Positions 16,370-64,000 of a DNA stretch of 64,000 nucleotides are shown one piece after another. Position numbers and translations under genes: made by a program. The notes beneath the pieces are model-generated. The model ran no database searches. It had not been told where the DNA came from and saw only the letters and a list, made by a program, of their open reading frames with translations. The stretch lies in assembly GCA_000146045.2 (NCBI GenBank), contig BK006949.2, positions 864,001-928,000 on the forward strand, in the 5' to 3' direction. Every line of letters starts with the position of its first letter. The first letter of the stretch is position 1. Source of the stretch: TPA_inf: Saccharomyces (Eukaryota).

Positions 16370-16385
16370 ATTATATTGTTAAAGA

Positions 16386-16726
16386 TGTTGTATCTCAAAA
16401 TGGGATACGTCAGTATGACAATACTTCATCCTAAACGTTCATAAAACACATATGAAACAACTTTATAACAAAACGAACAACATGAGGTAAAACCCGGCCT
16501 CCCCTAGCTGAACAACTCAAACGTATAAATGCCTGAACAATTAGTTTAGATCCGAGTTTCCGCGCTTCCACCATTTAGTATGATTCATATTTTATATAAT
16601 ATATAGGATAAGTAACATCCCGTGAATCAAGCTGATAAACAGTTTTGACAACTGGTTACTTCCCTAAGACTGTTTATATTAGGATTGTCAAGACACTCCG
16701 GTATTACTCGAGCCCGTAATACAACA
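16386..16726 (+). mobile_element. Solo sigma element (Ty3 LTR), about 340 bp
   Basis: The element starts TGTTGTATCTCAAAATG and ends with the inverted terminus ...TACAACA. Its internal sequence matches the sigma LTR as I remember it. Its end lies 16 bp from the 5' end of the tRNA gene, the canonical Ty3 target position. Confidence 0.8.
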
Positions 16727-16990
16727 GTGAGCTATTAAAAGAGCTTAAGTATTACAGAGTAATATCAATCATCAATCTTGGATCTAAAGTAATCGTCGAG
16801 ACATTTATACACTTAAGTGATTCCTCTTTACAAGCGGAGCTTACTCTATATATTCATTCTTGTCAGTTTCATAACAGTTGTTTCATACGATTTCCACATG
16901 TGTCTCATATATATTTTATGTTTAGGTTAATAACTTTGGTAATGCTAAATTATCTTAATTTGACGTACACAAATTCTTCCTACTGTTATA
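16727..16990. repeat. Probable second solo-LTR fragment abutting sigma, possibly tau/Ty4-like, boundaries uncertain
   Basis: The segment is AT-rich and ORF-free with an LTR-like composition, sitting immediately next to sigma at a tRNA gene. I cannot align it to a consensus from memory, so the family is not established. Confidence 0.3.
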
Positions 16991-19200
16991 TATGTTCGAA
17001 TTATCTTTTAAATTGTTGCTAAAAAAGTTAGAGTTATCACCAAATCAGTTGAGCAGATCACCATTATTCTTATGTAAATACTTGTTAAAAGAAGTAGCTT
17101 TCGCAAATACACCAATGCATTCGTTGATAATTTACGCAGTAACCTCTTACAGAACGCCTACATACAACTTAAACTCGTAATGTTCAGGCTTATAATGTCA
17201 GTATGCATTGTTACGCTTAGTATAGTTATTAAACTACGGACCAAATTATACTTTAAGCAGTAGTTAAAGAAAGAGATTAAATAAAGAATGATTTACAATC
17301 TAGTCGCAAAAACAAGTACAGTGCTGACGTCCCATCTTTTAATGCCTACTCTTTTGATGTTCACTTACATGTTACAATGAAGCCAAATCACAAACATTCA
17401 AATATATTCCATGGCCTCTTAGTTTGGCAACCCAAGACTCGGCATACCATATTGGTAACGCTGTATTGGAGAGATATATTCTAAAATATTGATAATTAAT
17501 GGCAAAAAGGCAGTATTAATGAAGGTTGAATATGGATCTTAATATAATCGTATAAGAGGGGCATAAAATATACGCCGATTGGTTCAACATTAATTATGAT
17601 CAATATAACAATGCGTCTGGTAATTACCATAACACTTAATGTAGCAACTCGTATAACAAACGTATCATGCTCAATTAATATAACCTTATCTCTGCTTCAG
17701 CACTGTCTGAGCTACTCTTTTAACGTTTCCTTTTGCAATAGGTACCTTCACACTAAAACATATACAATGGGTGCATTTAAATTGTTACCATAGCAACTCA
17801 TATTACGATTCATTACCACTCATTTCAACACAACAACCTCTTGCTATCAAACTTACTTTTGCTTTTATTGCAGATATCTCGTTATTTCTGCAAAAACAGC
17901 ATTCATTGGTAATGACAAGGTCAATTTTGGCTTTTATACATTTCACATGTACAGGATAGTGGAACACATTCCAAGGAGGTGAAGAACGTCCCCTTTGATA
18001 CTTCCATACAAGGACGATTAAAAATACATAAGAGAACAGATCTGCAAAAATGCGTTTTACTTCCTTTACAATCTCAATGCCGATAAATAAGCGCAATGAA
18101 GATTACTCAGCAACTGTATGTTGGCTCATGCGAAATATGAATGTTTCATTCGAGATTACTTATCTTGTTTAACGCTTGAACAGCGTACTGTAACTTCTTG
18201 CTACAGAATGATGGACCCCATTATAATACTACCGCCTTGCGAATGCGCAATTTATTATGATCATGAACCCTGAGAAATCAAATGAATATTTAAAGTGTAT
18301 GCAAAATGGACAAGAACATTATGGTAACATTGTCTACGACAGAATTTATTTTCTGACTTTAATAGTGACGGTTATACGAAATTAATGATTCTTCGAGAGG
18401 CAACTCACTTTACTGCAAATGGACCTGCAGAGTTTGCATCTAGAGGACAATATGCTGCACAAAAACGACCAATATTTACCTTCAACGAAAACAACCTTAA
18501 GAAACCCCTTCAACAACAACGCAGCTATCGTATCGTAGTGGTCTCCATAATGCGTGCACCTCCTTTAGCACTTATCGAGTAATAACATACGCTAGATAAG
18601 TAAAGTGTCCAGGATATTATAATTATATGATATTTCGGGAATGGTTTCTATATCTAGTTTTTTAACTTAGCCTAGACATTCGCCTCGTATTATAAAATAC
18701 ATGAAAGTGACTTGACTGCTTCATGAGAGTTATACTAAGAGCATTCATAACTAGAAGACACATTTTAGTTTTTATTACTGAGTAAGGGTTTAGTTTGTAC
18801 ATACAAGGCAACATGAAATTCAAGGTGCTGATGTTCAGTAAAGCCGCCTAGCTTTACGTGCCGAAATATTGATAATATGTCTCAGCCACTTCCTGGCTTA
18901 ACTATTTAAATGATATTTCTGCATCCATCGGTATGGCGCACAATAAACGGTATCTGAGAATATCGAAAAGAACACCACAATACTACTGAGTGCAAACACA
19001 GAAGAGCGTAGGTGATTCAACTAATTGAGTTAGAAACTGCATCAACGCTGCATAATAAAGATGCTGCTGTTCAGGATCATTTTTTTTAAAGACTGAAAAA
19101 AATTGCTTATCGCTTTGCACGCGACTCTTTTTTCTATTATTTGAAAAATAGCTTAAGGGAAAAGAAAAGAATAGGTAGCTTTCAAAGCAAGAACCTCTAC
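16991..19200. repeat. ORF-poor, AT-rich region with degenerate retrotransposon or LTR-like fragments
   Basis: No ORF longer than about 110 aa occurs over roughly 2.2 kb in an otherwise gene-dense window. Stretches at about 17440-17560 weakly resemble delta sequence in reverse orientation. The call is tentative. Confidence 0.3.
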
Positions 19201-19238
19201 GATAAAGGACAAAGCTAGAAGCAAACACCGCAAAAAAA

Positions 19239-19387
19239 ATGAGACCCGTTGTATCCACTGGTAAGGCATGGTGTTGTACCGTCCTATCGGCATTTGGTGT
19301 AGTAATTCTTTCCGTCATTGCTCATCTCTTCAACACAAACCATGAATCCTTTGTAGGATCAATAAACGATCCTGAAGATGGACCTGC
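19239..19387 (+). CDS. YPR170W-B: Exon 1 of a small intron-containing ORF encoding a predicted 85-aa membrane protein (YPR170W-B)
   Basis: The ATG is at 19239 and exon 1 ends in phase 2. A GTATGT 5' splice site lies at 19388-19393 and a TACTAAC branch point at 19452-19458. The intron is 99 nt. Confidence 0.8.
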
Positions 19388-19486
19388 GTATGTTATATTT
19401 TCTTATTTATTTCGCCGTTACCCATTTACCATCTCTTATATCTCTCCTCCTTACTAACAATTATATTTTAACCCTATTGTTTATAG

Positions 19487-19595
19487 TGTTGCACATACTG
19501 TTTATTTGGCTGCCTTGGTATACCTCGTGTTTTTCGTATTCTGTGGGTTCCAAGTTTACCTAGCCAGAAGAAAACCTTCGATCGAGTTGCGTTAG
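19487..19595 (+). CDS. YPR170W-B: Exon 2 of YPR170W-B
   Basis: The 3' splice site is the TTATAG ending at 19486. The spliced frame reads ...DGP-A-VAHTVYLAALVYLVFFVFCGFQVYLARRKPSIELR* and stops at TAG 19593-19595. Both exons encode hydrophobic helices. Confidence 0.8.
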
Positions 19596-19827
19596 TCTTG
19601 AAGCCAATAGGATAATACCAAATGCATTAATATCGTCCAACTGTTCTATATACTTATCGTAACCTCGTTCCATGTGACATTCTTTTTTATTACACTTTTC
19701 GACAATAGCGAATTGAGTGAAATATTATGAAAGAATATATAGTATAAATATATACATTTATATATGAATTCTAATCAATAAAAGTCACAGTAACCAGCTT
19801 TTCCTAGCTTTTCGAAGTTTCGGAAGT

Positions 19828-47800: not shown

Positions 47801-47987
47801 TTACACCTGCATTTTCCTTTATGTGTATTTGCTTTGTTTGTATATTATTATAACTATAAAGAACGATTTATTTTGTAATGCAAATAACTGGACGAGAGAA
47901 CCACGCTATAACCTATTTGGTAATAAAAATGTTTGTATGAATAAAAAAGCTGCTGACTGCTTTCTTTGATATGTGTATATAGAATAT

Positions 47988-48479
47988 TTAATCGGTGATT
48001 GAATCTAAGAAAAGCTTACCTCTGAAAGTTCTCTCTTCGGTCGCTTGCTGATTTGTAGTAAACAATTTGAAAAGTTTAGCAAATTCTTCCTCAGGATTTT
48101 CAAAACCGGCTTCCTTTAAAGAATCAATGACCTCATTCAAGGGAACGTTTAAATCGTGTCCTCTTCCAATGGCTTTTAAACTTTCTTCCAATTCTTCACG
48201 CTCGGGAAACTGCGATAAGTTCTTCCCCATGATAGATAAGAATATGGGAAAGCTTACACCTTCTTCTCCAACTTCCGCGGTACTGGTGTCATTGTCAGGT
48301 ACCATTTTGGACCATTCCTCATCTGTCAATGTCTTCCCCAATGTTGCATATATCTTGGTAAGATCTCCCCTACTAATCAGACCATCCTCATCCTCATCCA
48401 GCATTTGGAAAGCATCTTTGAGTTTATTTATGTAGTCCTGCGTAAGTTGGTTAAACGTTAGCGATTCACTATGGTCCAT
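47988..48479 (-). CDS. MLC2: Myosin regulatory light chain, EF-hand protein, 163 aa
   Basis: An EF-hand DEDEDGLISRGDL loop is present. The first ATG is confirmed at 48477-48479. The ORF track starts at a TTG. Confidence 0.8.
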   Translation of the reverse strand: MDHSESLTFNQLTQDYINKLKDAFQMLDEDEDGLISRGDLTKIYATLGKTLTDEEWSKMVPDNDTSTAEVGEEGVSFPIFLSIMGKNLSQFPEREELEESLKAIGRGHDLNVPLNEVIDSLKEAGFENPEEEFAKLFKLFTTNQQATEERTFRGKLFLDSITD

Positions 48480-48663
48480 ATCTACTTCAAGTTTGCTCAA
48501 TAAACGATTCGAAATTACTCTTTTCTTAGCTGTGCATTGTATAGTTTAGAAATACGAGAAATGTAAAAAAAAAAATAAAGTTGGAAAACAACTAACTAAT
48601 AAAACTTTCTTGTCAAGAAAGACACTAAGAACACAGAAAAGAAACACGAAGAGCAGAGGAAAT

Positions 48664-51600
48664 ATGTCGGATATTAAACAGCTATTGAAGGAAGCCAAAC
48701 AAGAATTGACAAATCGTGACTATGAAGAGACCATCGAAATATCGGAAAAGGTTCTTAAACTAGATCCCGATAATTATTTCGCACATATTTTTCTAGGGAA
48801 AGCACTTTCGAGTCTTCCAGCTAGTAATAATGTCAGTTCAAATCGGAACCTGGAGAGAGCTACTAATCATTACGTGTCCGCTGCCAAATTAGTTCCTGAT
48901 AACCTTTTAGCGTGGAAAGGACTTTTTCTCTTATTTAGAACCACTGAGGTTGTCCCAGACATACTTTCGTATGATGAATATTTTGACCTGTGTGGCCAAT
49001 ATGCAGACGCACTTTTAAAGCAGGAACAGTCTCAAGTAGAACTAATAAATGACATAAAATTACTAAAGAAAACGCATCCAGATTGTCAAAAAGCCTTTTA
49101 TCAGCATTTGAAACCTGGGTCGCTAATGGCGGAAACTATTGGTCGTCATCTATCTACACCCCAGGACGCTTTATTAAATCTTATAAAGATACTGTCTAAT
49201 ATTGAAACAACGGAAATAGGTAAGACCCTTAGTCAGAACAGGTTAAAACTAAAAGCTAGTGATCCTGATTATCAAATTAAACTAAATTCATTCTCCTGGG
49301 AAATAATTAAAAATTCAGAAATTGATCAGTTATACAACCAGTTGGTAAATATTCTCGCTGACGATCAAAAGAGAAGTGAAATTGAGAACCAGTGGTTAGA
49401 ATATAGAATCAAAGTGCTAAAATCAATGCCGCTGGATGTAAAAAAAGATTTTTTCACGAAAGTTAAGGAAATGGTCGAGGATATGGTTCTTGTGAATCAT
49501 CAATCTTTGCTTGCATGGCAAAAGTATTTCGAATGGACAGATTACGAAGATCTGGACAACATGGATGCCCCATTGATAATAAAGTACTTTAAGAAATTTC
49601 CTAAAGATCCATTGGCCATGATCCTCTATTCCTGGCTTTCCTCAAAACTATCGAAATATGATATTAAAAGTTTGGAATCGGCTAATAAACCACCTGAAGG
49701 CCATAAAAAGACGGAGAAGGAAACAGATATTAAGGATGTAGATGAGACAAATGAAGATGAAGTTAAAGATCGCGTTGAAGATGAAGTTAAAGATCGTGTT
49801 GAAGATGAAGTCAAAGATCAAGATGAGGAGGCAAAGGAAGATGAAGAAGAAGACCTTGATGATATAGAAATTGGTTTATTAGAGGAAGAGGTTGTCACTG
49901 TATTGACGGAGAATATCGTAAAATGTAAAAATAATATCTTAGCGCATCGCATTCTTTGTCAATATTACCTACTGACCAAGGAGTATGAGGCAGCTTTACC
50001 ATACATCAAAAATGGTATTTCTTTAATTGCCTATAATATAAAGGACCTGGGGGTACATTTGCCATTAACAAAAAGAGAATTTTCTCTGGATTTGGCTACC
50101 GTTTATACATATGTCGATGCCCCAAAGGACCACAATGCTGCATTAAAGTTATATGATAACATTTTATCCGGTGATTTTAGTAATATACAAGCAAAAATGG
50201 GCAAAGGTATAATTTTTATTGAAAGGAAAAATTGGAAGGATGCTATGACATTACTAACACAGGTGCATGAACAATCGCCTAATAATCTGGAAGTTTTATC
50301 TGAACTGTCATGGAGTAAAGCCCATATGGGTTATATGGACGAGGCATTAGCTGGCTTAGATACTGTCATCAAGGGTATCAAAGGTATGGATTTACGTTCG
50401 ATAGATTTCAGAGCATTAAACTTATGGAGGCAAGCCAAAGTTTACATTATGAAGCATGCTTCCATTAACGATGCTAAACAGGAAAACGTCAAGTGCGCAT
50501 TCAAATTACTCATTCAGAGTATTAAAATATTGGACACTTTTGCTCCCGGATTTTCGACACTGGGCGATATTTATTGCCACTATTATAAAGACCATTTGAG
50601 GGCCTTCAAATGTTATTTCAAAGCTTTCGATCTGGATGCGGGGGATTACACAGCAGCGAAGTATATTACCGAAACTTATGCAAGCAAGCCCAATTGGCAA
50701 GCTGCTTCTTCCATCGCTTCAAGATTAATTAAAGGTGAAAAAGCAAAGGCAGAACTGCGCTCAAATAACTGGCCCTTTAGGGTCGTAGGGATTGCTCATT
50801 TGGAAAAGCAAGAAGAAAGTGATTCTATTGAGTGGTTTCAATCTGCTTTACGTGTTGATCCAAATGATGTAGAGTCATGGGTGGGCCTGGGACAAGCATA
50901 CCACGCGTGTGGTCGTATAGAAGCATCTATCAAAGTTTTTGACAAGGCAATTCAATTAAGGCCCTCTCATACTTTTGCCCAATACTTTAAAGCTATTTCT
51001 CTATGTGACGTAGGTGAATATCTTGAAAGTTTAGACATTCTGGAAAAGGTATGTCAAGAAGCCGCTACAGAAGAGTCATTCCAAATTGGTTTAGTGGAAG
51101 TGCTTATGAGATGTTCCTTGGATTTATATTCGCAAGGGTTCTTGCTCAAATCAGTTTCAATTGCAAAGGACACTATTGAACGGATCAAGATAATTATCAG
51201 TGAATTAAAATGTGAGAACCAACAGGTTTGGATCTACCTTTCACAAGTACTGAGATTATTTATTTGGATAGAGTCAAAGGTTGATACTTTACCTGTTGAA
51301 TCACTAGTATCAATTTTTGAAAATTCTCAATTTTCTGGTAGTGAAGAAATTGATTCTGTCGACAATATCAAAATCGATACTTTACTCGATAGCACTACTG
51401 ATGATAATGTGTCCATTGCGTGCAAGTTTTTGATCTTAGCTTCAAAATATAGTGTTTCGGATCAAAAATTTACAGATATAGCAGGAACGGTCAGGGCCTC
51501 ATACTGGTATAATATAGGTATCTCAGAGCTTACTGCTTTCATAACATTGAAAGAACCGCAGTATAGAGATGCTGCTATTTTTGCTTTTAAGAAATCCATT

Positions 51601-52962
51601 CAATTACAGTCTAATACAAGTGAAACTTGGATTGGTCTAGGGATAGCCACTATGGACATCAACTTTCGTGTCTCTCAACATTGCTTTATTAAAGCAACTG
51701 CTTTGGAACCGAAGGCGACAAATACATGGTTCAACTTGGCTATGCTAGGTTTAAAGAAAAAGGATACTGAATTTGCTCAACAGGTTCTGAATAAATTACA
51801 AAGCCTTGCCCCACAAGATTCGTCACCTTGGCTAGGTATGGCCTTGATTCTTGAGGAACAAGGAGACATTATCGGAAGTTCTAAACTTTTTGCACACTCC
51901 TTCATATTATCTAATGGAAGGTCAAAGGCTGCGCAATTTATGTATGCTAAAAATGTCCTTGAGAATCACATTAATAATGGTGACGATGAAAGAGATATTG
52001 AGACAGTGGAAAAACTAACCACTGCTTCAATAGCTTTAGAGCAGTTTTTCAAAAAAAGTCCTGATAGTCAATTTGCTCTTCAATGTGCTCTTCTAACTCT
52101 TGAAAGGTTACATCACTATGAAAATGCAAACGAACTGGCTAATCGGTTGATAGGCATTTTGGAAAAAAAGTTTGAGAAAACTCAAGATGAAAGAGAACTG
52201 TTTAATTTTGCGATAATTAAAGGACAATTCGCTCGTATTCACTTAGGTTTAGGAAATTTCGAACTCTCTATTGAAAACGCTGATCTTTCTCAAGGTATTA
52301 TATCTGAATCGAGCGACGAAAAATCAATGAAAACCAAAATATCCAATCACATTTGCTTAGGATTAAGTTATTTCTTCTTAAACGACTTTGATCAGACTTT
52401 GAACCAATTCCAAGAACTGCTAAGCATTTCAAAGGATTCTAAGCACCTAGTTGTTTTAATTGCGAAGGTGCTTTATGATGTAGGTGAATCTGACACAAAG
52501 GAAATTGCTTTACAGGAACTAACAGAATATATAGCCACAAGCGGCGCAGACTTGTTAGTAACACTAACGATTGCAGCTATGTCAATTCTAGACGATAAGC
52601 GTGAAGATTTAAGCATTATTTTAGAAGAATTGAAAGCTTTGCCATTATCCAAACAAATAATAGATAAGCACAAAGACGCACCATATCTGATAGAAGAAAT
52701 TACTAAGAGACTTTATCGTAACGATACCGGTAAACAAGTATGGCAAAGGAGTGCGTACTTTTTCCCTAATAACCTCAAGGTTTGGGAGAGATTAGATAAG
52801 AATATTCAACGAAGAATAGCTTCTAATGGACAAAATAAAGTTACTGCGGAGGAGATGAGTAAACTATATTGTGAGAGTAAGAATTTGAGAAGCATACAAA
52901 GAGGTATGTTTTTGTGCCCTTGGAACGTTACTGCAGTGAAGGCGCTAAACGAATGTTTCTAA
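48664..52962 (+). CDS. SKI3: SKI complex TPR-repeat scaffold Ski3, 1432 aa
   Basis: TPR repeats run throughout the protein. The first ATG (MSDIKQLLKEAK) is at 48664. The ORF track starts upstream at a TTG. Confidence 0.85.
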   Translation: MSDIKQLLKEAKQELTNRDYEETIEISEKVLKLDPDNYFAHIFLGKALSSLPASNNVSSNRNLERATNHYVSAAKLVPDNLLAWKGLFLLFRTTEVVPDILSYDEYFDLCGQYADALLKQEQSQVELINDIKLLKKTHPDCQKAFYQHLKPGSLMAETIGRHLSTPQDALLNLIKILSNIETTEIGKTLSQNRLKLKASDPDYQIKLNSFSWEIIKNSEIDQLYNQLVNILADDQKRSEIENQWLEYRIKVLKSMPLDVKKDFFTKVKEMVEDMVLVNHQSLLAWQKYFEWTDYEDLDNMDAPLIIKYFKKFPKDPLAMILYSWLSSKLSKYDIKSLESANKPPEGHKKTEKETDIKDVDETNEDEVKDRVEDEVKDRVEDEVKDQDEEAKEDEEEDLDDIEIGLLEEEVVTVLTENIVKCKNNILAHRILCQYYLLTKEYEAALPYIKNGISLIAYNIKDLGVHLPLTKREFSLDLATVYTYVDAPKDHNAALKLYDNILSGDFSNIQAKMGKGIIFIERKNWKDAMTLLTQVHEQSPNNLEVLSELSWSKAHMGYMDEALAGLDTVIKGIKGMDLRSIDFRALNLWRQAKVYIMKHASINDAKQENVKCAFKLLIQSIKILDTFAPGFSTLGDIYCHYYKDHLRAFKCYFKAFDLDAGDYTAAKYITETYASKPNWQAASSIASRLIKGEKAKAELRSNNWPFRVVGIAHLEKQEESDSIEWFQSALRVDPNDVESWVGLGQAYHACGRIEASIKVFDKAIQLRPSHTFAQYFKAISLCDVGEYLESLDILEKVCQEAATEESFQIGLVEVLMRCSLDLYSQGFLLKSVSIAKDTIERIKIIISELKCENQQVWIYLSQVLRLFIWIESKVDTLPVESLVSIFENSQFSGSEEIDSVDNIKIDTLLDSTTDDNVSIACKFLILASKYSVSDQKFTDIAGTVRASYWYNIGISELTAFITLKEPQYRDAAIFAFKKSIQLQSNTSETWIGLGIATMDINFRVSQHCFIKATALEPKATNTWFNLAMLGLKKKDTEFAQQVLNKLQSLAPQDSSPWLGMALILEEQGDIIGSSKLFAHSFILSNGRSKAAQFMYAKNVLENHINNGDDERDIETVEKLTTASIALEQFFKKSPDSQFALQCALLTLERLHHYENANELANRLIGILEKKFEKTQDERELFNFAIIKGQFARIHLGLGNFELSIENADLSQGIISESSDEKSMKTKISNHICLGLSYFFLNDFDQTLNQFQELLSISKDSKHLVVLIAKVLYDVGESDTKEIALQELTEYIATSGADLLVTLTIAAMSILDDKREDLSIILEELKALPLSKQIIDKHKDAPYLIEEITKRLYRNDTGKQVWQRSAYFFPNNLKVWERLDKNIQRRIASNGQNKVTAEEMSKLYCESKNLRSIQRGMFLCPWNVTAVKALNECF

Positions 52963-53076
52963 AAATTTGGATTCGAGATAGTCAATCAAACCTTAATGTA
53001 ACATTAGTAATAAATTTTATCTTTTCTATAGAGTATAAAAGGTTATTAGACAGAGTTTATCAGCTGTATAGAGTAA

Positions 53077-55041
53077 TCATGCCATTTGGAAAACTTCCCA
53101 AAGCGATAGCAACCTCGATAAACGAGCGAAAACATTTAGCTCTCTTTCATTGACCATCTTTAATTGATTCAATTCGCTTGGTAATAGTAGTTCGTTCTCT
53201 CTTCCTTTAACATCATCTCTATTTGCCTTTTTTAATAATGTAGAGTTTTCTTGCTTTAATTTCTCCTTTTTAAAAAGTAAATTTGCCATATTCCATTCCA
53301 AGTTTTGTCTCATGAAATTATAGGAATGCGTTTCTTTGCATCTAAACAAAAAAACTGCCCTTGATGCTGATCTATCGGCTGTTCTTGGAACTTCCTGGAT
53401 TTCCACAGAATTGTATCTAATTAAAGATGCTAATGTAGATCTTATATCCTTTTCCTTCATTAACGCAGTTGAGTTGATAATTTTCTCAGACACCAGCTTG
53501 TTATCACGAATACAACGGCTTAAACGCATTGCTGAGGGTCCCAACGTAGACGCGATAACATACTCATAAACAGATGACTTTAATACTGGCATTAGTTTGC
53601 TATATGGAACATAGTAAACACCTGGTTTGGTTTCGTTCAAAAAGGGGAAATTTGATGATGCTAGGATTTTTAAATGACTATTTATCAAAGAAGCTGAGTG
53701 AGGATCCTCAGTGTCTGCATCCAAATCCTCCTCCTCTTCGTCTTCTTCTTGTGTATCTCCACTTTCTTGAAGAGATTTGGAAACAGCAGCAGGTAGCGCC
53801 GGGATCACAAATCCATCTTCGGTTTTTAATTTTTTACTGGGTAATGATGCAGCAGCGTTTGAGCCAGAACGCTTTTTATTGTCAGAGGGCTTTCTAGATA
53901 ATAAGCTTCCACGCAAGTCCAATTCTGCGGGGAGATGTCTTGCCAAGTCAATAGCATTAAAGGTAAGCCCTGGTGTCTTCTCCTCAACAAGTTCGGCTTC
54001 GTCTTGAAACGATTTTGCTTCCTCCAAATCTTGTAAAAGCCCAGTTTGAGTTAGTGGATCTCTAATTTTAGGAGACTTTTGCTCTGTGAGTCTTAATGCA
54101 ATTTTGTAAACTTGAGCTGTGACGGAGCCGACTCTTGTCTTGGCCAAGTTAATCAATTGTTTAGATCTTCTACCTTTCATAAATCTATCCAAATTAATCG
54201 TCAGAGAGACTGTAGGTTTAACAATCCTCAATGAGGTCTTTGGATCAACCGTTAAGATTTGTGAAAGCTCATTTGGTTTATTTATGATTTTGGCAAAATC
54301 AGTTTTCGCATTCATCTTGGCTTGGGATCTTTTCTTCAAATCGGACAACGGGGAGTTTCTGGGAATATTTTTGTAATGTTTTTCATATAAAAATTGCCAG
54401 AGATCTTCGATTGGGGTATAATGCAATTTTGATATTTGAATAAGATATCCCATTTCACACAGTTGCACGAATAGTGATGAAATGGTGTACTTCATGGAAT
54501 CTGACGTGACACTACTTAGATAATCTTCCACTGTTAAGGACCCTAATGATATAACGTTTTGTACAATTTCAGCCACCAGCTGTTTATGCTCCTCTTCGTC
54601 GTTTACACGCATTTGCGTAATAATTTCGTCAATAATCAACCCTGAGTAGAGTAAAATGTGTATCCCTTCCTCGTTATAGTAATAATAAGTCGTTTTTTTC
54701 CCGGATATTGCTGTTTCTTGCAGGTACTTAACACACCTTAATTGAGTTAATGAGACTAGTGTCGTCTTGACGCTGTCTACATCCATACCATCTATTTTCT
54801 CCACTAACTCGCGCACACTCAATCTGCCCAGCGCAACCAACATCCCAATTACAGAAGCTGCTCTTTCACCCAGATGTGCCTTCACCAACTCTTTGTAAAG
54901 AAACAAATCGGGATTCAAGGTTCTCTGTTCCAAGGATGATATGGTCATAACATCTTCGGGGGTGACCAACTTCTCAGATTCGACAGTGCTCTCACCTGTT
55001 TGGTTCTCTGCACTAAGCGCTTCTCCCAGTAACTCGTCCAT
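53077..55041 (-). CDS. RPC82: RNA polymerase III subunit C82, 654 aa
   Basis: The product has winged-helix repeats and an acidic patch (EEDEEEEDLD). The first ATG (MDELLGEAL) is confirmed at 55039-55041. The promoter carries PAC and RRPE motifs. Confidence 0.85.
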   Translation of the reverse strand: MDELLGEALSAENQTGESTVESEKLVTPEDVMTISSLEQRTLNPDLFLYKELVKAHLGERAASVIGMLVALGRLSVRELVEKIDGMDVDSVKTTLVSLTQLRCVKYLQETAISGKKTTYYYYNEEGIHILLYSGLIIDEIITQMRVNDEEEHKQLVAEIVQNVISLGSLTVEDYLSSVTSDSMKYTISSLFVQLCEMGYLIQISKLHYTPIEDLWQFLYEKHYKNIPRNSPLSDLKKRSQAKMNAKTDFAKIINKPNELSQILTVDPKTSLRIVKPTVSLTINLDRFMKGRRSKQLINLAKTRVGSVTAQVYKIALRLTEQKSPKIRDPLTQTGLLQDLEEAKSFQDEAELVEEKTPGLTFNAIDLARHLPAELDLRGSLLSRKPSDNKKRSGSNAAASLPSKKLKTEDGFVIPALPAAVSKSLQESGDTQEEDEEEEDLDADTEDPHSASLINSHLKILASSNFPFLNETKPGVYYVPYSKLMPVLKSSVYEYVIASTLGPSAMRLSRCIRDNKLVSEKIINSTALMKEKDIRSTLASLIRYNSVEIQEVPRTADRSASRAVFLFRCKETHSYNFMRQNLEWNMANLLFKKEKLKQENSTLLKKANRDDVKGRENELLLPSELNQLKMVNERELNVFARLSRLLSLWEVFQMA

Positions 55042-55155
55042 TTGGATCTTGCTCAACAAAAATTTTTCCCTATTCCTGTGTCAGCAATTCTCTATTGTTC
55101 TCAATATTTCTTCCACTATTATTATTTTGATCCAAAATTATTTTTTTCCTTCAAT

Positions 55156-55177
55156 GCGATGAGCTTTTGAAAAATTT
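55156..55177. promoter_or_regulatory. PAC motif (GCGATGAGCT) immediately followed by an RRPE-like TGAAAAATTT in the RPC82/QCR2 divergent intergenic region
   Basis: GCGATGAGCT is an exact match at 55156-55165 and TGAAAAATTT lies at 55168-55177. This pairing is the ribosome-biogenesis regulon signature. RPC82 is a Pol III subunit, which fits. Confidence 0.5.
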
Positions 55178-55380
55178 CTGATCATTCCCAACGAACCAAT
55201 AGAAGGCCCGCCCCGTCTTATATCCGTTAGCCTACCAAATATATATATAAAGAACAAGGGCCTTTCCTCAGAGCGTTTGCTGACGAAGTTTTAGAAGTTA
55301 ATAAGGTTTTTAACAGCAGTGTGCTCGAACGATTAGGACGGGAGAGTTAAAATTATTAAAAGGAAAAAAGAAGAACGTTG

Positions 55381-56487
55381 ATGTTGTCAGCAGCTAGATT
55401 GCAATTTGCCCAGGGGTCAGTTAGAAGGTTGACCGTTTCCGCTAGAGACGCACCTACTAAAATATCTACATTGGCTGTTAAGGTCCATGGAGGGTCTCGT
55501 TATGCAACCAAGGATGGTGTGGCCCATCTTTTAAACAGATTCAACTTTCAAAACACGAACACTAGATCAGCTTTGAAATTAGTCAGAGAATCCGAATTAT
55601 TAGGGGGAACTTTTAAGTCTACCTTGGATAGGGAATACATCACTTTGAAAGCTACCTTTTTGAAGGACGACCTTCCCTACTACGTCAATGCCCTAGCAGA
55701 CGTGCTATACAAGACTGCCTTCAAACCTCACGAGCTCACCGAATCTGTTTTGCCTGCTGCTAGATACGATTATGCGGTCGCTGAACAATGTCCGGTAAAG
55801 AGCGCCGAAGACCAATTGTATGCCATTACATTCAGAAAGGGTTTAGGAAACCCATTGTTATACGATGGTGTGGAAAGAGTCAGTTTGCAAGATATCAAGG
55901 ACTTTGCGGACAAAGTCTATACCAAGGAGAACCTTGAAGTTAGCGGTGAAAATGTTGTTGAGGCCGATTTGAAAAGATTTGTTGACGAGTCACTGTTAAG
56001 CACTTTGCCTGCAGGTAAGTCATTGGTGAGTAAATCCGAACCAAAATTCTTTTTGGGTGAAGAAAACAGGGTAAGGTTTATCGGTGACTCCGTTGCCGCC
56101 ATTGGTATCCCGGTAAACAAAGCCTCCCTAGCTCAATATGAAGTATTGGCCAACTATTTGACCTCTGCCCTATCCGAGCTTTCCGGTTTAATCAGCTCGG
56201 CTAAACTTGATAAATTCACTGACGGCGGCCTATTTACTCTGTTTGTAAGAGACCAGGACAGCGCCGTGGTATCTTCCAACATCAAGAAAATTGTTGCGGA
56301 TTTGAAGAAGGGCAAGGACTTATCCCCTGCAATAAATTACACAAAGTTAAAGAATGCCGTCCAAAATGAATCTGTTTCCAGCCCAATTGAACTAAATTTT
56401 GACGCCGTGAAGGACTTTAAGTTGGGAAAATTCAACTATGTAGCCGTCGGTGATGTTTCCAACTTGCCATATTTGGACGAATTGTAA
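55381..56487 (+). CDS. QCR2: Cytochrome bc1 complex core subunit 2, 368 aa
   Basis: The sequence resembles an M16 peptidase with an inactive catalytic site and has an N-terminal mitochondrial presequence-like segment ([17 protein letters not shown]). The ATG is at 55381. The ORF track starts at a TTG at 55378. Confidence 0.85.
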
Positions 56488-57859
56488 GAGGAAAGTATTT
56501 GTACAAAACGAAAAACTAAAGGCAAATATATATATAGATGTTGCCGCGCACCTTTTTTTTAATGAATATTCACACAAATATTGAAAATAAAAACAAACAA
56601 AATTCAAATAACAACATGTAAGACCAAAAAAAAATCCCTCATTATTTATTCCTTACCCTTTCCAAATTCTTACTATACTAGTAAATATATATTTAATTAT
56701 CCTTTTTTCTACTTCAGCATACAATCCTTCTTTTGCCGCAGGTTTATAGTTAGACCCCTCAATTCTGTCAAGTTTCAGTGGTACGTTATTTTATGTCTCA
56801 TCTCACGATCCTGGCAAAAAAAGAAAGGCATGTAATTTGAGGAGGCGATTCACCCTCATTTTTACGCAACAACAATGCTGTGTGGCTTACACGCCTCTGC
56901 GTACATATCTACATATTTAACGGTCCTGTATTTTCAAGCACGCAAGGCTGAAATAAACGGTTGTTTGCTTATGCGCGATGCACTCCGCCGAACATCACCG
57001 CAAAAGCACCGTAGGCGGAGATCTCCCAGCTAGTATGGGCATGACGGAACCACGATTTCCAGATATAGATACTTAAAAGCACTAAAAGGTCTATACATAA
57101 AACGCAGACTTACGTAAGATACATAGCAACTGCCGATATGGACGCCGCCATGCCGAATGACAAAGGGAGAATGTAGTACTAATTGATATCGTCTTATCCT
57201 CTCAGGAATGCAAACTTAAAACATACTTTCTCCCGTCCTAACAACGCCGGTTGTCGACGATAAATACCCCAAGAAATGCCCGCACAGAATCTCCTCCGTT
57301 AGGTGGTCATGCCCCGAGGGTGCGAGGTTGTTTCCTGCACGGTAAATCGGGATGCCATGAAAGCCGGCCCTCCCCACGCGTCCCCTAATTTTTTTCCAAG
57401 TGAATATCTGCATCGGCCACCGTTTTATATTACTTCGATAAGCTTGCCTTAAACTCATTATTGCCGTCGTTTATCCCTCAAAGCTTAATCTTACAAGAAT
57501 TAGAAAGAAGAAAAGTTTATTCGTATAGACTTCCTTATGCCTGATGTCCTTCCACCCTCTTACACAGTAGGATTAGTCTAGAAGTGGTAAATTGCAGGAT
57601 AGCATATACGCGACAAGGAAAAGAAAGAAGGAAAAATATTTTACGTCGGAAATTGTGTGATATGCCGTTTGAATTCGAGGTATATTAAGCGCAGTGCTTT
57701 TCCCTGCATCGCATTCTGTCTGTTCTTCCGAGTGTCGATTCCCACAATTCGTCTTGTCCTTTTGATATTTTGTTTTTTTTTTCCTTCTCTTTTTTTATTC
57801 TTTGTATTTGGTGCTGTCTGTCAATACGGCACATAAAGTAACATGTAATTAACTATAAC

Positions 57860-58777
57860 ATGTCTTCGAACGATTCGAACGATACCGACAAGCAACATAC
57901 ACGTCTGGATCCTACCGGTGTGGACGACGCCTACATCCCTCCGGAGCAGCCGGAAACAAAGCACCATCGCTTTAAAATCTCTAGGGACACCCTGAGAGAC
58001 CACTTTATCGCTGCGGTCGGTGAGTTCTGCGGCACATTCATGTTTTTATGGTGCGCTTACGTTATCTGCAATGTCGCTAACCATGATGTCGCACTCGTTG
58101 CAGCGCCTGACGGTTCCCATCCGGGTCAATTGATTATGATTGCCATCGGTTTCGGATTTTCCGTCATGTTTTCTATCTGGTGTTTTGCCGGTGTCTCTGG
58201 TGGGGCTTTGAATCCTGCTATGTCGCTTTCGCTGTGCTTGGCGAGAGCCGTCTCTCCTACAAGATGTGTCGTTATGTGGGTTTCGCAGATTGTTGCTGGA
58301 ATGGCCGCTGGAGGCGCTGCAAGCGCCATGACACCTGGTGAAGTCCTCTTTGCCAATTCTTTGGGCCTGGGCTGCTCTAGGACGAGGGGTCTGTTCCTGG
58401 AGATGTTCGGCACCGCTATCCTATGTTTAACAGTCTTAATGACGGCTGTGGAGAAGCGTGAAACCAACTTTATGGCTGCGCTGCCCATCGGCATCTCCCT
58501 GTTTATCGCACACGTCGCTTTGACTGCATACACAGGCACAGGTGTCAACCCTGCGAGGTCCTTGGGTGCTGCTGTCGCAGCCAGATACTTCCCTCATTAC
58601 CACTGGATTTATTGGATTGGCACGCTGTTAGGATCCATTTTAGCATGGTCTGTATGGCAATTATTGCAAATCTTAGACTACACAACCTACGTTACCGCTG
58701 AAAAGGCTGCCAGCACCAAGGAAAAAGCTCAAAAAAAAGGTGAAACCAGCAGTTCCTCTGCTGTGGCTGAAGTCTAA
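57860..58777 (+). CDS. AQY1: Aquaporin (MIP family), 305 aa, carrying M121 and T255
   Basis: Six transmembrane segments are predicted. NPA motif 1 reads GALNPAM and NPA motif 2 reads GVNPARS. The ATG is confirmed. Confidence 0.9.
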
Positions 58778-58908
58778 TTTTTCCCTCCTTTTCTTTATTT
58801 CTCGCTCACTAGCACTTAATGTTATAATACTCGGCAAAAACTAGTAAGATTAATTGTTTTTAATTTTTTTTTTTCTATACATCCATACTACTGAGGTAAT
58901 TAGTGTTT

Positions 58909-59421
<513 letters not shown>

Positions 59422-60303
59422 CTAAGAGCAATACTTAGCCCTTTTTGCTCTATTTATAGCGTTCCCTCTCTTAATGATTGCCGCTCCCCTAATATAATTG
59501 GTAGTTCTTGCCACCCGTTAGTTCCGTCCATAAAAATGTTCAACCAATAAAAGCAAATCAAGAAGTGACTGAGAAGTACAATGAACTATGACGTTAAAAG
59601 GCTAACCCAATGCAGAAATTAAATAGAAATAAATACATTGTGTAGTCGGCCTGTAACTTGTATTTCGCAAACGTCTTATAAAGGCAAGAAAATTTCAAAT
59701 GTTCGAAATCTGACATCAGCCGCATGCTATGTTGTCAATCTCTCTCAATACTCGGCTGGCTTAACCCTGAATCATCCCAAAAAACGGTGATACTGTATTT
59801 GAATATGCTTCAACCGGAGTAATTATCCAGTAGTGCAACGCATCTCATTCCAACTTGAAATATACGTTTACAAAACTATTTACCACTTGTATTTCTGCAA
59901 TAATACCAAAATTCATGCAAAATAAACACCATCATTACTTGTAGTTGGAAGCAAAAAATATTCTTGATTGATTTTCAATTGCCAGGCTCCTTATCACTTC
60001 GTCGATGAGCCAAAAAAAAATGTAGTTCCTATTCTGGTATCAAAGCATTTTTCTTTATTGATAACATCCGCATACACAGAGAAAAGGCGAGAAGCATGAA
60101 AAGTGTCAAAAATATTGAACTAGAGTGTACTGTTATAGTTTTGGCAGGTATGAAGACAAAATGATGGCTTTTTACATATCAAAGTAACTCTGTACTATAG
60201 ATAGAAGAATAAAAACTAAATACATGCAGGTGACTGATAGAAAAGACAAGTGCAGGGGAGAAAAAAAAATAAAGAAATGATAGCGTTCTAAGAAAAGTTC
60301 TAG

Positions 60304-62937
60304 TCATGGATAGTGTCCTGGAGCATAGCCGAAATAGCCATTTGCTGTATCAGTTATGTTCTTTAGAGGATAGCCAACGCCATCGGCACCAGCATACGGA
60401 ACTGTATTGCCCCACCAATTAAAAGCTGTGTCTTTATATTGGACAGCAAAGAAAATGATAATAGCTGATAAAACCAAGCCCGTTGAAAAGCCTGCCGATA
60501 AAACATAATTATATTTCTCCCACAGATTTAAATGGTGTCTTTTCATGTAGTACTGGGAAATGTAACTAACAATCATACCAGAAGTGTAATACATCAGGTT
60601 ATATGGAGGGCTCATATTAAGCATTCCACCTACAAATAACATTGGGTCAAAATATCTGGGATAAAACTTACCCCAGCGCTTCCAAACACCAAAAAATATG
60701 CCAATGCATGCGCCTATCAACCAACACCATTTAAATATTGGATAAATGTAATTGAAAATTCTTTTTGGCCCAATTGCACCCCAGACAACGGAAGCATTAT
60801 AGTAGGTCACAGCATCAGGACAGGTGAATTTTGCGTTTTGATGAGGTGTGCAAAAGTCTTTGATATTGGAGATTTGCCAATTCAGAACACCTAGATTGAC
60901 AAATATCTGAATGAAAACTATAACACATTGTCCCCTGAATAGCGCCATTGGCGGAATCTTACAATAATGCGCTATTTTTAAGTTAGAAACGTAATTATCT
61001 GCTTGGCCGTCGATGTTATAACCAAAAGCCTTCAAAATCATTATGGCGATTGGATTACCTGGTAAAGCGTACCCCATCACCATTTCAATTAGTAGATTCA
61101 AACCAAACGAATAACCAGTGGTTGCTTGAAGGATAGTAGTTGGAATCAAGAAAACAAAATTAAATCCTAAACAAACAAAAAGACCCCAAACTGGTGTATT
61201 TGTTGGGTAGTGCTCTACAACAGCTATTCCAACAACAAGTGAACCTATCAATATGGCAAAATACCACCAATCTGGAACTTCTTTATAGTTTTTCATGGCA
61301 TTAGAATGTGGGTCATCATAATCGTCGAGCGCCCTGTAATCGCTTTTGAACATTGTGACCCAAGATTTAAGTTTTCTCATGGCCCACAAATTCAAAGCCC
61401 AATCTTTGAAAGCATTGAACAATAACTTTGAGTGTACAATAAACGACCATGTAATCATCAGAGGATATGCGCAAATGAAAGCACCATATGATACCAAATT
61501 TCCAGCACTATAGTATGGTGGCGAGTAGCTTTGATATTTTTTCACATCTAGCTTATTGTCACTGTCTAATACCTCAGTAACTTTAAAGGAATGGCCAGTA
61601 TTAGTATACAAAGAATTTGTGAATATTGGCAGGTATTGGCAACTCATATAATTACTATAGTATACTGCAATAACAATTAAAGCTGCTAATATGCAACCAA
61701 GATATTGTGTTAAGTATGACCAAAATGGGTAAACTAAAGGAGAATTAAACGAAATAACATTCCAGTCAAAAGATGAGATAGGATTAATCCCAAGACCAGT
61801 GACTCCTCCCGTGATGTTTGCGAGATTAATGTTACTTGGCTTGATCCAGGTCATCCAATTGAAAGTGTTTAGAATATTAATAATGTAAGTGGGAAACCAG
61901 TTATAGATGAACATGATAAAAAAAGTCAAGAAAAAGAATTTATACCTGCTCATTCCAGATTCATGCTTTTCTTTACCCAATAGTGCCTTGTTGATAGCAA
62001 TAGTTGGCATGACTGTTGGCCATAGTGCACGGGCTGGATAAACAACGAATTTTCTAAGGATGCCAGCAAATCCAAATCCAATAAATTGTACGGATAACGA
62101 AAGTAAAAATTGGTAGCCAAACGAGAAAGCAGAATGGTAAAAGAGTTTTTGCGTTAGAATATTGTAATGAGTATAGAACGCGCCTTGACAAATTGCATAT
62201 AACAAGGTTGAAAACATTTGCTCTTTTTGGGTCCATGGTTTATCGATATTGATACCATACTTTCTGCCCCTGATGGTTATAGTCCAACAGGGGATAGTTT
62301 TAGCCCAAGCCTTACCACAGATATATAAAAACATTTGGATAATTGGAGTATTCAGTGAAATTGAAACCACCCTGTGTGAAAAAAACTCATTAAATCCTGA
62401 ACCGATGACAGACCAAATTATTGCCAGAAAATATGCTCGGAATGTCTCCACTGGAATGGTGGGATCATCTTCTGGATCAACAACAGCTCTAACCTCTTGG
62501 TAAGGCGAATGAAATTTAATAGCAGAAGCAAATGCTCTAATGTCAAAGCTATCATATTCATCTATCCCCTCTTTTGAATCCAAGTCCTCCAAGTCAACCA
62601 ATCTCTTCCACTCCTCATATTGATCGTGTGGAATGTTCTCATCATCCTTGAAATAGATGATAGAGTCTTTTAGTATTTTGAAGGAATCCTCAAGTGTCAA
62701 TTCAGGCATTTTTTTGAGGATATACGCAACGTCTTCCGGAATATCATAAAGAGTGCGATTTTCATAACCCAGCTTCTTCATAAAGTGCAGTATCTGTTCA
62801 TCCGTATACCACTGAGAAAAGTCTGATGAATGATTTGAAAGCCTCTCAGAATACTCAGCACCCTCGGCGTAATCAACAGTACCTTTTGTGGATACCTTCT
62901 CATCAATTATAACTTTATCTTTGACTGTTTCACTCAT
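60304..62937 (-). CDS. OPT2: OPT-family oligopeptide transporter, 877 aa
   Basis: The product is a multi-pass membrane protein of the OPT superfamily. The ATG is confirmed at 62935-62937. The 877 aa length matches Opt2. Confidence 0.85.
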   Translation of the reverse strand: MSETVKDKVIIDEKVSTKGTVDYAEGAEYSERLSNHSSDFSQWYTDEQILHFMKKLGYENRTLYDIPEDVAYILKKMPELTLEDSFKILKDSIIYFKDDENIPHDQYEEWKRLVDLEDLDSKEGIDEYDSFDIRAFASAIKFHSPYQEVRAVVDPEDDPTIPVETFRAYFLAIIWSVIGSGFNEFFSHRVVSISLNTPIIQMFLYICGKAWAKTIPCWTITIRGRKYGINIDKPWTQKEQMFSTLLYAICQGAFYTHYNILTQKLFYHSAFSFGYQFLLSLSVQFIGFGFAGILRKFVVYPARALWPTVMPTIAINKALLGKEKHESGMSRYKFFFLTFFIMFIYNWFPTYIINILNTFNWMTWIKPSNINLANITGGVTGLGINPISSFDWNVISFNSPLVYPFWSYLTQYLGCILAALIVIAVYYSNYMSCQYLPIFTNSLYTNTGHSFKVTEVLDSDNKLDVKKYQSYSPPYYSAGNLVSYGAFICAYPLMITWSFIVHSKLLFNAFKDWALNLWAMRKLKSWVTMFKSDYRALDDYDDPHSNAMKNYKEVPDWWYFAILIGSLVVGIAVVEHYPTNTPVWGLFVCLGFNFVFLIPTTILQATTGYSFGLNLLIEMVMGYALPGNPIAIMILKAFGYNIDGQADNYVSNLKIAHYCKIPPMALFRGQCVIVFIQIFVNLGVLNWQISNIKDFCTPHQNAKFTCPDAVTYYNASVVWGAIGPKRIFNYIYPIFKWCWLIGACIGIFFGVWKRWGKFYPRYFDPMLFVGGMLNMSPPYNLMYYTSGMIVSYISQYYMKRHHLNLWEKYNYVLSAGFSTGLVLSAIIIFFAVQYKDTAFNWWGNTVPYAGADGVGYPLKNITDTANGYFGYAPGHYP

Positions 62938-64000
62938 AATTTCTAATAATTCAACAGCAATATTGCGTATAACAAACCCTACTAGTTGTAGAATAAGCTA
63001 ATATGTTCGTTTCTGCTATTAAAAAAATGCCGCCGTTGTTTAGACGTTCAATGTATGATTGTAAGTGTTTCAAATATTATTTTTTGGGATGTTTCGATAG
63101 GAATGAATATAAGTAACAACTGACTTGAGACATGACTTAAGTTTACACAGGATAGTGTTCCATTCCCATTTATAAATTTTTTTGAAGCGAGAAGAAACCT
63201 AGCAAGTTGATATCAATATTTTTTTTAATGTTACTTATCTTCATTGCTAATAATTCGTGAAATGATTGAAAATTTCCAATCCATGAACATTCAGAAGTAA
63301 GATAACAGCGTCCAATTGTAAAAGAACGCTATTATTATTGTAGATAAGAGAATAAACTTAAATAATCGAAGGTGTTACGAATCTTCATAAAACCCAATGG
63401 GCTGATATTGACAACCGCAATGGCGATTCACGTGTTCGGTAACCACAACAGGGGCCAAGAGGAAAACAAACTACATCAATTTTTGCAAAAGGTTAACAAC
63501 GAAATGTGGGATTATTGAAAATTATAACGAAGAAACTACGTCGGACAGCAACCCCCCGATTTTTGTCGGTTGCTTTTACTGACACCATGATGTGAACCAA
63601 ATTTTCTTTTGGTATTCCTCGCATAGTGTTGACTTCTTTTACCATGATAAAAATAATGAGATAAGAAGTGTTGCAGTAATATTATGTGTCACACCAGCGT
63701 GGCTGCCATATTTGAGACGGATTCGTCCGGTGGATGTGATGGATCCGTTTAATGCTGATCTCTCCTGCATTTTTTGTGAAAAATCAGATATCAATTATTG
63801 GTCTATCTGCTTTTGCCTGTTTGTTTTTTTTTCATTATAGAGTTCCTCAGTGAGTGGGATTGATGATGCGCACGGCACAATTGAAGCATTTGCTTATCAA
63901 AACATAAATATCTCCGTACCCAAATAGGAAAAACGCGTTAATGCAAAGTTGACACGTTCAGTTACTATTTCCTGAAATAATAATACAGCCCACAAAAACC

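What the first reader, a model, noticed from the sequence alone, without database searches (positions are those of the whole stretch)
57860..58777. AQY1 allele carries the two substitutions associated with an inactive water channel in laboratory strains (M121, T255)
Counting residues from the ATG, the first NPA motif is followed by Met (NPA-M121, where a functional MIP channel normally has NPA-V). The conserved WIGP motif in TM6 reads WIG-T255. From the literature I recall that V121M and P255T are exactly the changes that make Aqy1 of S288C-type lab strains non-functional, whereas wild and Sigma1278b alleles (V121, P255) transport water and confer freeze tolerance. The window therefore appears to come from an S288C-like genome with a cryptically inactive aquaporin.
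Basis: partly seen in the sequence, partly recalled or inferred. Interest (0 to 1): 0.55.

Follow-up and report, generated by a model that had tools for sequence, protein, structure and literature searches.

The report
Known inactive AQY1 aquaporin allele of S288C
This is the ordinary laboratory-yeast (S288C) copy of the water-channel gene AQY1, whose open reading frame is intact but which carries the two already published amino-acid changes (M121, T255) reported to make the channel non-functional.

Summary
Window 57860-58777 (+) is an intact 305-aa MIP/aquaporin ORF. The first NPA (118-120) is followed by Met121 (ATG, 58220-58222), and W-I-G (252-254) by Thr255 (ACG, 58622-58624). The protein is identical to NP_015518.1, Aqy1p of S. 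cerevisiae S288C, and lies in the expected order QCR2-AQY1-HPA2-OPT2. Among about 110 fungal homologs, position 121 is Val in 111/111 and position 255 is Pro in 107/110. S. paradoxus and S. kudriavzevii have V and P, so both changes are derived single-base substitutions (G361A, C763A). Published work (Bonhivers 1998 as cited by SGD 2016; Will 2010) states that M121/T255 inactivate Aqy1p in S288C-type strains and that the S288C ORF gives no freeze-thaw tolerance.

Four refinements:
- V121M is widespread in natural and industrial strains and occurs without P255T.
- The identical coding sequence also sits in chromosomes with diverged flanks, so it is not confined to S288C.
- The Sigma1278b allele has V/P but a frameshifted 327-aa C-terminus, and that allele class gave no function in vivo in Will 2010.
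- S288C carries a third derived change, N47D, at a conserved position. I found no mention of it in the searchable literature.

The parts
57860..58777 (+). AQY1 (YPR192W) coding sequence, S288C allele, 305 codons plus TAA stop
   Evidence: ORF. Pfam MIP PF00230, E = 4.8e-41. Exact identity to NP_015518.1 Aqy1p S288C. 59% identical to P. pastoris Aqy1 with rmsd 1.6-1.7 A between the model and 2w1p/5bn2.
58211..58219 (+). First NPA motif (N118-P119-A120), intact
   Evidence: N118 and P119 are invariant in 54 sequences.
58220..58222 (+). Codon 121, ATG = Met. Derived from GTG = Val by G361A at window 58220.
   Evidence: G in S. paradoxus and in V121 S. cerevisiae alleles, A in the window and in M121 alleles L010/L011. 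V in 111/111 distant homologs. In the AF2 model it is the third residue of half-helix HB, 119-127.
58622..58624 (+). Codon 255, ACG = Thr. Derived from CCG = Pro by C763A at window 58622.
   Evidence: A only in the window, C in all five comparison loci including S. paradoxus. P in 107/110 distant homologs and T in none. It lies in the first two turns of TM6, helix 250-271 in the model.
57998..58000 (+). Codon 47, GAC = Asp. Derived from AAC = Asn by A139G.
   Evidence: every other allele and ortholog compared has N/A here. N in 89/110 distant homologs and D in 2. Third residue of TM1 in the model. P. pastoris Aqy1 has N at the aligned position.
58547..58558 (+). Second NPA motif plus Arg233 (N230-P231-A232-R233), intact
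   Evidence: All four residues are invariant in 54 sequences.
58731..58738 (+). A8 run near the 3' end, at the ancestral length. It is the site of the 'A881 deletion' (327-aa allele) and 'A882 insertion' (294-aa allele) found in other strains.
   Evidence: L012 lacks one A here and encodes the 327-aa product P0003. One search shows the C-termini of P0002/P0003 (327 aa) and P0123 (294 aa, R294). Allele descriptions are in PMC9593892. The window reads through to the same 305-aa length as S. paradoxus.

Best explanation
The window is from the right arm of S. cerevisiae chromosome XVI of an S288C-type genome, and 57860-58777 is AQY1. The gene looks intact: a full-length 305-aa ORF, both NPA motifs, and the residues that align with the aromatic/arginine filter (F98, H218, R233). 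It is nevertheless the published loss-of-function allele.

Shown here:
- Three single-base, derived, non-synonymous changes separate it from the ancestral sequence: N47D, V121M and P255T.
- V121M and P255T hit the two most conserved positions at which this protein deviates from its family.
- V121M is the older change, since it is found with P255. P255T and N47D were added on that background.

From the literature: M121/T255 Aqy1p gives low water permeability, and the S288C ORF gives neither freeze-thaw tolerance nor sporulation complementation.

Inferred mechanism: Met in place of the invariant Val directly after NPA1 puts a longer side chain at the start of half-helix HB, where the two NPA half-helices meet in the middle of the pore. 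This would disturb the packing or geometry of the constriction. Thr in place of the near-invariant Pro of the W-x-G-P motif near the start of TM6 would disturb helix initiation and packing, and so folding or stability. Together they would give a protein that is poorly accumulated and poorly conducting. Loss of function is tolerated, and probably favoured, on high-sugar substrates (Will 2010).
For: Residues and codons. Identity to S288C Aqy1p. Gene order MLC2-like/SKI3-like/RPC82/QCR2-like peptidase M16/MIP/GNAT/OPT in all loci carrying the protein. Ten other window proteins are exact S. cerevisiae matches, five with S288C or S288C-reference names. Conservation (V 111/111, P 107/110); 54-sequence alignment. 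Polarity from S. paradoxus and other alleles. M121 with P255 in P0123, P0125, P0130 and P0133, and T255 only together with M121. Position in secondary structure and aquaporin fold: (mean pLDDT 83.5; 95-96 for the 10-residue blocks holding residues 121 and 255). Functional statements: PMC4888754 and PMC2848549 with its Tables S1/S2. On the lineage to the window allele there are 3 non-synonymous and 1 synonymous changes, against 16:64 for the rest of the divergence from S. paradoxus (Fisher p = 0.035). This fits relaxed or positive selection, but the counts are small.
Against: No functional measurement can be made here. The primary paper (Bonhivers et al. 1998, JBC 273:27565) is not in the held library, so I rely on how two later papers cite it and on my own recollection that it reported low Pf and reduced protein level. 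The separate contributions of M121, T255 and D47 are not resolved by anything I could read. The structural mechanism is inference from position and conservation; the AF2 model still predicts a confident aquaporin fold for the mutant sequence, though such a model is not expected to register the effect of single substitutions.
Confidence: 0.93

Rival explanations
1. V121M alone is the inactivating change. P255T (and N47D) are later passenger mutations that accumulated in an already dead gene.
For: Will 2010 names only V121M as the inactivating polymorphism and scores strains with the 'V121M mutation' (K1, Y12, Y1, Y10, DY9, YJM436, BY4741, W303) as lacking a functional AQY1. Alleles with M121 but P255 exist (P0125 from YJM1400, P0130, P0133, P0123), while T255 never occurs without M121. 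V121 is the more strictly conserved position (111/111 against 107/110).
Against: PMC4888754, citing Bonhivers 1998 and Sidoux-Walter 2004, attributes inactivity to both residues. P255 is near-invariant across the family, so P255T is unlikely to be neutral in a working channel. I could not confirm from Will 2010's table whether its natural 'V121M' strains also carry T255.
Confidence: 0.3
2. The allele is not dead. It is a hypomorph, or a channel with altered regulation or localisation, that keeps a role such as in spores or under particular membrane tension.
For: The ORF is fully open after three derived substitutions. Both NPA motifs and F98/H218/R233 are intact, and the model folds confidently. 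The related A881 allele conducts water in vitro yet is inactive in vivo, which shows that 'non-functional' depends on the assay.
Against: The BY4741 ORF under YPS163 flanking sequences did not complement the sporulation defect and gave no freeze-thaw tolerance (Figure S5 legend). Adding a functional AQY1 to S288C changes its phenotype (better freeze-thaw survival, worse sorbitol survival), so the resident allele does not supply that function.
Confidence: 0.06
3. The M121/T255 reading is a miscount or a sequencing artefact of this window.
For: None found.
Against: The count was made by script. The same protein is on record in 129 blocks of the assembly collection, including independent assemblies and 98 contigs. 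The CDS is identical in eight fetched loci.
Confidence: 0.01

Closest known systems
Aqy1p of S. cerevisiae S288C (YPR192W; NP_015518.1; UniProt AQY1_YEAST), the 'aqy1 V121M/P255T' laboratory allele of Bonhivers et al. 1998
   Same: Identical over all 305 residues, with the same chromosomal neighbours.
   Different: Nothing; it is this allele.
Full-length V121/P255 AQY1 alleles (the YPS163 type in Will 2010; here P0124 of S. cerevisiae and P0132 of S. paradoxus, both 305 aa)
   Same: Same length, same C-terminus frame, 95-98% identity.
   Different: They have N47, V121 and P255. The YPS163 allele gives freeze-thaw tolerance and complements sporulation. I did not verify that P0124 is the YPS163 sequence itself.
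Sigma1278b / RM11-1a / Y55-type AQY1 (A881 deletion, 327 aa; here P0002, P0003, L012)
   Same: Same gene and locus; V121 and P255 as in functional channels.
   Different: One A is missing from the A8 run at window 58731-58738, which shifts the frame after K293 and extends the product to 327 aa. This allele class is reported to transport water in vitro but to lower protein level and be inactive in vivo.
Pichia (Komagataella) pastoris Aqy1, PDB 2W2E / 2W1P / 5BN2
   Same: 59% identity, E = 3.8e-89. The model superposes at 1.6-1.7 A. It has the same dual NPA (Asn112/Asn224, which are N118/N230 here) and an extended N-terminus.
   Different: It has Val115, Pro249 and Asn43 where the window has M121, T255 and D47 (alignment, offsets -6 and -4). 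It is a functional, N-terminally gated channel.

Membership tests
MIP / aquaporin superfamily (Pfam PF00230) | Significant match to the family profile above the curated cut-off | tested here: met
   141.4 bits against a cut-off of 25, E = 4.8e-41, residues 51-262.
MIP / aquaporin superfamily (Pfam PF00230) | Two NPA motifs, one in loop B and one in loop E | tested here: met
   NPA at 118-120 and 230-232.
MIP / aquaporin superfamily (Pfam PF00230) | Six transmembrane helices plus two half-helices (hourglass fold) | tested here: met
   The AF2 model has helices 45-74, 88-113, 119-127 (HB), 133-157, 174-197, 207-225, 231-241 (HE) and 250-271. Foldseek top hits are aquaporin structures, with TM-score 0.87-0.89 normalised to the target.
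Orthodox (water-selective) aquaporin | Aromatic/arginine filter of the F / H / small residue / R type | tested here: met
   F98 and R233 are invariant and H218 nearly invariant in the 54-sequence alignment. That these are the filter residues rests on my knowledge of the homologous positions in P. pastoris Aqy1 (offset -6).
Orthodox (water-selective) aquaporin | Measured water permeability | not testable with these tools
   The literature reports that this allele lacks it.
Orthodox (water-selective) aquaporin | Conserved Val after NPA1 and Pro of the W-x-G-P motif in TM6 | tested here: not met
   M121 and T255, against V 111/111 and P 107/110 in homologs. This is the finding itself; the protein is a family member by descent carrying two deviant core residues.
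S288C-type aqy1 allele of S. cerevisiae | M121 and T255 in a 305-aa product identical to the reference protein | tested here: met
   Exact-sequence look-up returns NP_015518.1 / AQY1_YEAST.
S288C-type aqy1 allele of S. cerevisiae | Chromosome XVI right-arm context (QCR2 upstream; HPA2 and OPT2 downstream on the opposite strand) | tested here: met
   Window ORFs at 55378-56487 (+), 58909-59379 (-) and 60304-62937 (-). HPA2 and OPT2 are exact matches to S288C proteins. All loci carrying the protein show the same order.
S288C-type aqy1 allele of S. cerevisiae | No A881 deletion, A882 insertion or 5' 955-bp deletion (the other known loss-of-function alleles) | tested here: met
   The A8 run is intact and the ORF starts and ends as in S. 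paradoxus.

The most novel reading that the evidence does not exclude
N47D (A139G, window 57998) is a third derived substitution of the S288C AQY1 haplotype. It lies at the cytoplasmic start of TM1, just after the long N-terminus, which acts as a gate in the P. pastoris homolog. The position is Asn in all other Saccharomyces alleles examined and in 81% of distant homologs. N47D might contribute to the loss of function, or alter gating, independently of V121M and P255T. If so, the textbook 'two substitutions' account would be incomplete. No paper in the searchable library mentions it together with Aqy1.
Probability: 0.12. Interest if true: 0.2.

Novelty: already known. Interest (0 to 1): 0.08.

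Why it matters
It matters little as a discovery. The allele, its two substitutions and their consequence were published in 1998, are used as a worked example by SGD, and were placed in an evolutionary framework (adaptive aquaporin loss, balancing selection) in 2010. The practical point is that an intact-looking ORF in the yeast reference genome encodes a non-working channel. Users of S288C-derived strains therefore cannot study Aqy1 water transport, freeze tolerance or its sporulation role without importing a V121/P255 full-length allele. As a check on the scan, it shows that the first-stage reader can recognise a cryptic loss-of-function allele from residue-level deviations at conserved motifs.

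Tried and rejected
- I tried to read the primary papers: Bonhivers 1998 by DOI, Carbrey 2001 (PMC14698), Sidoux-Walter 2004 (PMC536013) and Tanghe 2002 (PMC134395). None is held. The functional claim therefore rests on two later open-access papers that cite them.
- I searched for a middle sporulation element (GNCRCAAAW) upstream of AQY1. There is none in 57000-57860, and the window-wide count equals chance: 11 found against 10.6 expected.
- An Rfam scan of the whole window found only the tRNA at 16296-16369 and nothing near AQY1.
- I considered whether the 'YER187W-like' proteins that share the Aqy1 cluster in the protein collection point to a fusion or rearrangement. BLASTP shows no similarity to Aqy1 (best E = 0.66), so I rejected this as a clustering artefact.
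- A search for 'Aqy1' plus 'N47D' in the paper library returned nothing.
- I considered using AF2 confidence to judge the damage done by M121/T255. I rejected this because the model is confident (10-residue-block pLDDT 95-96 around both sites) and such models do not register the effect of single substitutions.

Full report
**What is in the sequence**

Window 57860-58777 (+) is a single ATG-initiated ORF of 305 codons. Counting by script from the ATG:
- The first NPA motif is residues 118-120 and is followed by Met121 (codon ATG, window 58220-58222).
- W-I-G is residues 252-254 and is followed by Thr255 (codon ACG, window 58622-58624).
- The second NPA is residues 230-232 and is followed by Arg233.

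**What the gene is**

- The product matches Pfam MIP (PF00230) at 141 bits, E = 4.8e-41.
- Its closest solved structure is Pichia pastoris Aqy1 (2W1P/2W2E/5BN2), E = 3.8e-89.
- An exact-sequence look-up shows it is residue-for-residue NP_015518.1, Aqy1p of S. cerevisiae S288C (UniProt AQY1_YEAST).
- Every assembly that carries this exact protein has the same neighbours: an EF-hand protein, a 1432-aa TPR protein, RPC82, a peptidase-M16 protein (QCR2), the MIP gene, then a GNAT acetyltransferase and an OPT transporter on the opposite strand.
- Ten other proteins of the window are exact matches to S. cerevisiae proteins. BSP1, ATG13 (NP_015511.1), PZF1, HPA2 and OPT2 (NP_015520.1) carry S288C names, and GDB1 and DPM1 carry the reference UniProt names.
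- The last 16,141 bases of the window are 100% identical to two public assemblies and 99.99% identical to a third.

**Are M121 and T255 unusual?**

I aligned the query with 134 proteins returned. I removed six unrelated sequences and then looked for positions where the query differs from a consensus of 80% or more among the 112 homologs below 93% identity. Only five of 305 positions qualify:

| Position | Window residue | Homolog consensus | Note |
|---|---|---|---|
| 47 | D | N, 81% | D in 2 homologs |
| 70 | C | A, 83% | C in 19 homologs |
| 121 | M | V, 111/111 | M never seen |
| 219 | V | L, 83% | V in 2 homologs |
| 255 | T | P, 107/110 | T never seen |

M121 and T255 are thus the two most deviant residues of the whole protein. 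P. pastoris Aqy1 and spinach PIP2;1 also read NPA-V and G-P at these positions.

**Polarity and order of the changes**

I fetched the DNA of four other S. cerevisiae loci and of S. paradoxus AQY1 and aligned the coding sequences.

- ORF position 361 (window 58220) is G in S. paradoxus and in V121 alleles. It is A in the window and in two M121/P255 loci (L010, L011).
- ORF position 763 (window 58622) is A only in the window and C everywhere else.
- Both are therefore derived single-base substitutions: GTG to ATG and CCG to ACG.
- S. kudriavzevii also has V and P.
- M121 occurs together with P255 in several alleles (P0123, P0125 from YJM1400, P0130, P0133). T255 occurs only with M121 (the query, S288C, and P0001 from YJM1549). 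V121M is therefore the older change.

This is N47D (A139G, window 57998), which is absent from every other allele and ortholog compared.

On the lineage to the window allele I count 3 non-synonymous changes and 1 synonymous change. The rest of the divergence from S. paradoxus gives 16:64 (Fisher p = 0.035). This is suggestive only, because the counts are small.

**What else is intact**

- Both NPA motifs are present.
- F98, H218 and R233 are invariant or nearly invariant in the family. From my knowledge of the P. pastoris structure, these correspond to the aromatic/arginine filter.
- The A8 run at 58731-58738 has its ancestral length. Losing one A from this run gives the 327-aa 'A881 deletion' allele (L012/P0003). 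Gaining one A gives the 294-aa allele (P0123; described in PMC9593892).
- An AlphaFold2 model built on a 54-sequence alignment has mean pLDDT 83.5 and the full aquaporin helix set. It superposes on P. pastoris Aqy1 at 1.6-1.7 A.
- In that model M121 is the third residue of half-helix HB (119-127), T255 lies in the first two turns of TM6 (250-271), and D47 is the third residue of TM1 (45-74).

**What the literature says**

PMC4888754, the 2016 SGD paper, uses AQY1 as its worked example. It reports that:
- V121 and P255 occur in Sigma1278b, RM11-1a, SK1 and Y55.
[quoted passage not shown] 1998).
- Sigma1278b, RM11-1a and Y55 have a longer C-terminus that reduces expression.

PMC2848549 (Will et al. 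2010) reports the following:
- Freeze-thaw tolerance maps to AQY1 and AQY2.
- V121M is 'known to inactivate water transport'.
- The BY4741 ORF, placed under YPS163 flanking sequences, neither complements the sporulation defect of a YPS163 aqy1 deletion nor confers freeze-thaw tolerance.
- Loss of aquaporins is advantageous at high osmolarity.
- Table S1 lists the 'V121M mutation' in BY4741 and W303, and also in sake K1, Y12 (palm wine), Y10 (coconut), Y1, DY9 (Wisconsin oak soil) and the clinical isolate YJM436.

My recollection is that Bonhivers 1998 reported low Pf and reduced protein level in oocytes. I could not check this because the paper is not held.

**Mechanism**

Three things are shown here: the deviant residues are present, they are derived, and they fall at family-invariant positions in the core of the channel. 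One thing comes from the literature: the allele does not supply aquaporin function. The structural explanation is inferred.
- Met after NPA1 puts a longer side chain at the start of half-helix HB, where the two NPA half-helices meet at the pore centre.
- Thr replaces the helix-initiating Pro of the W-x-G-P motif of TM6.
- Together these would plausibly impair pore geometry and folding or stability.

Nothing I could read resolves which of the substitutions is sufficient. The variant reading 'V121M alone is causal, the others are passengers' remains open at about 0.3.

1. The allele is not a laboratory artefact. V121M is common in natural and industrial strains. The exact S288C coding sequence also occurs in chromosomes whose flanks differ from the window by 0.3-0.6% (L005, L007, L008).
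2. The Sigma1278b allele has V121/P255 but is frameshifted at the C-terminus. In Will 2010 that allele class was inactive in vivo, although it is reported to conduct water in vitro.
3. S288C also carries N47D. I found no mention of it in the searchable library.

**Verdict**

The finding is a correct recognition of a long-published allele. Novelty: already known. Interest: low.

Noticed in passing
window 57998-58000: Codon 47 is GAC (Asp). This is a third derived non-synonymous change of the S288C AQY1 haplotype (N47D, A139G). Every other S. cerevisiae allele fetched, S. paradoxus, S. kudriavzevii and P. pastoris Aqy1 have Asn. Among 110 distant homologs, N occurs in 89 and D in 2. No paper in the library mentions it together with Aqy1.
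   Followed up: partly
L005, L007, L008 (positions 10001-10918 of each) against window 47860-64000: The AQY1 coding sequence of these loci is base-for-base identical to the window, but their flanks differ by 0.3-0.6% (76-250 differing alignment columns in 16 kb). The M121/T255/D47 haplotype is therefore present in genomes that are not S288C copies. L007 appears to be the YJM1326 chromosome XVI.
   Followed up: partly
window 58477: A synonymous T (ORF position 618) is specific to the window allele; it is C in all five comparison loci, including S. paradoxus. With the three non-synonymous changes, this gives 3:1 on the S288C lineage, against 16:64 for the rest of the divergence from S. paradoxus (Fisher p = 0.035).
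   Followed up: partly
protein collection cluster (P0122, P0127, P0128, P0129, P0131, P0135): The 90%-identity cluster that holds Aqy1 also holds 318-372-aa 'YER187W-like' proteins, including the cluster representative. They have no detectable similarity to Aqy1 (best BLASTP E = 0.66). This looks like a clustering artefact of the database and is not a feature of the window.
   Followed up: yes
window 16295-16370 (-) and 16400-19800: A tRNA-Ile gene (anticodon AAT; ARAGORN, and Rfam at 58 bits) is followed by about 3.4 kb without any ORF of 150 aa or more. This is the only long ORF-poor stretch of the window. I did not examine it for LTRs or other repeats.
   Followed up: no
L005 12447-14381, and about window 62.9-63.9 kb: In one strain that carries the same AQY1 allele, the neighbouring OPT2 gene model is cut to 644 aa (877 aa in the window). 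About 180 differing alignment columns are concentrated just beyond OPT2, which suggests an indel or rearrangement there in that strain.
   Followed up: no
window 57000-57860: There is no match to the middle sporulation element consensus GNCRCAAAW upstream of AQY1, although the gene has a reported role in sporulation. The window-wide count (11) equals the chance expectation (10.6).
   Followed up: yes
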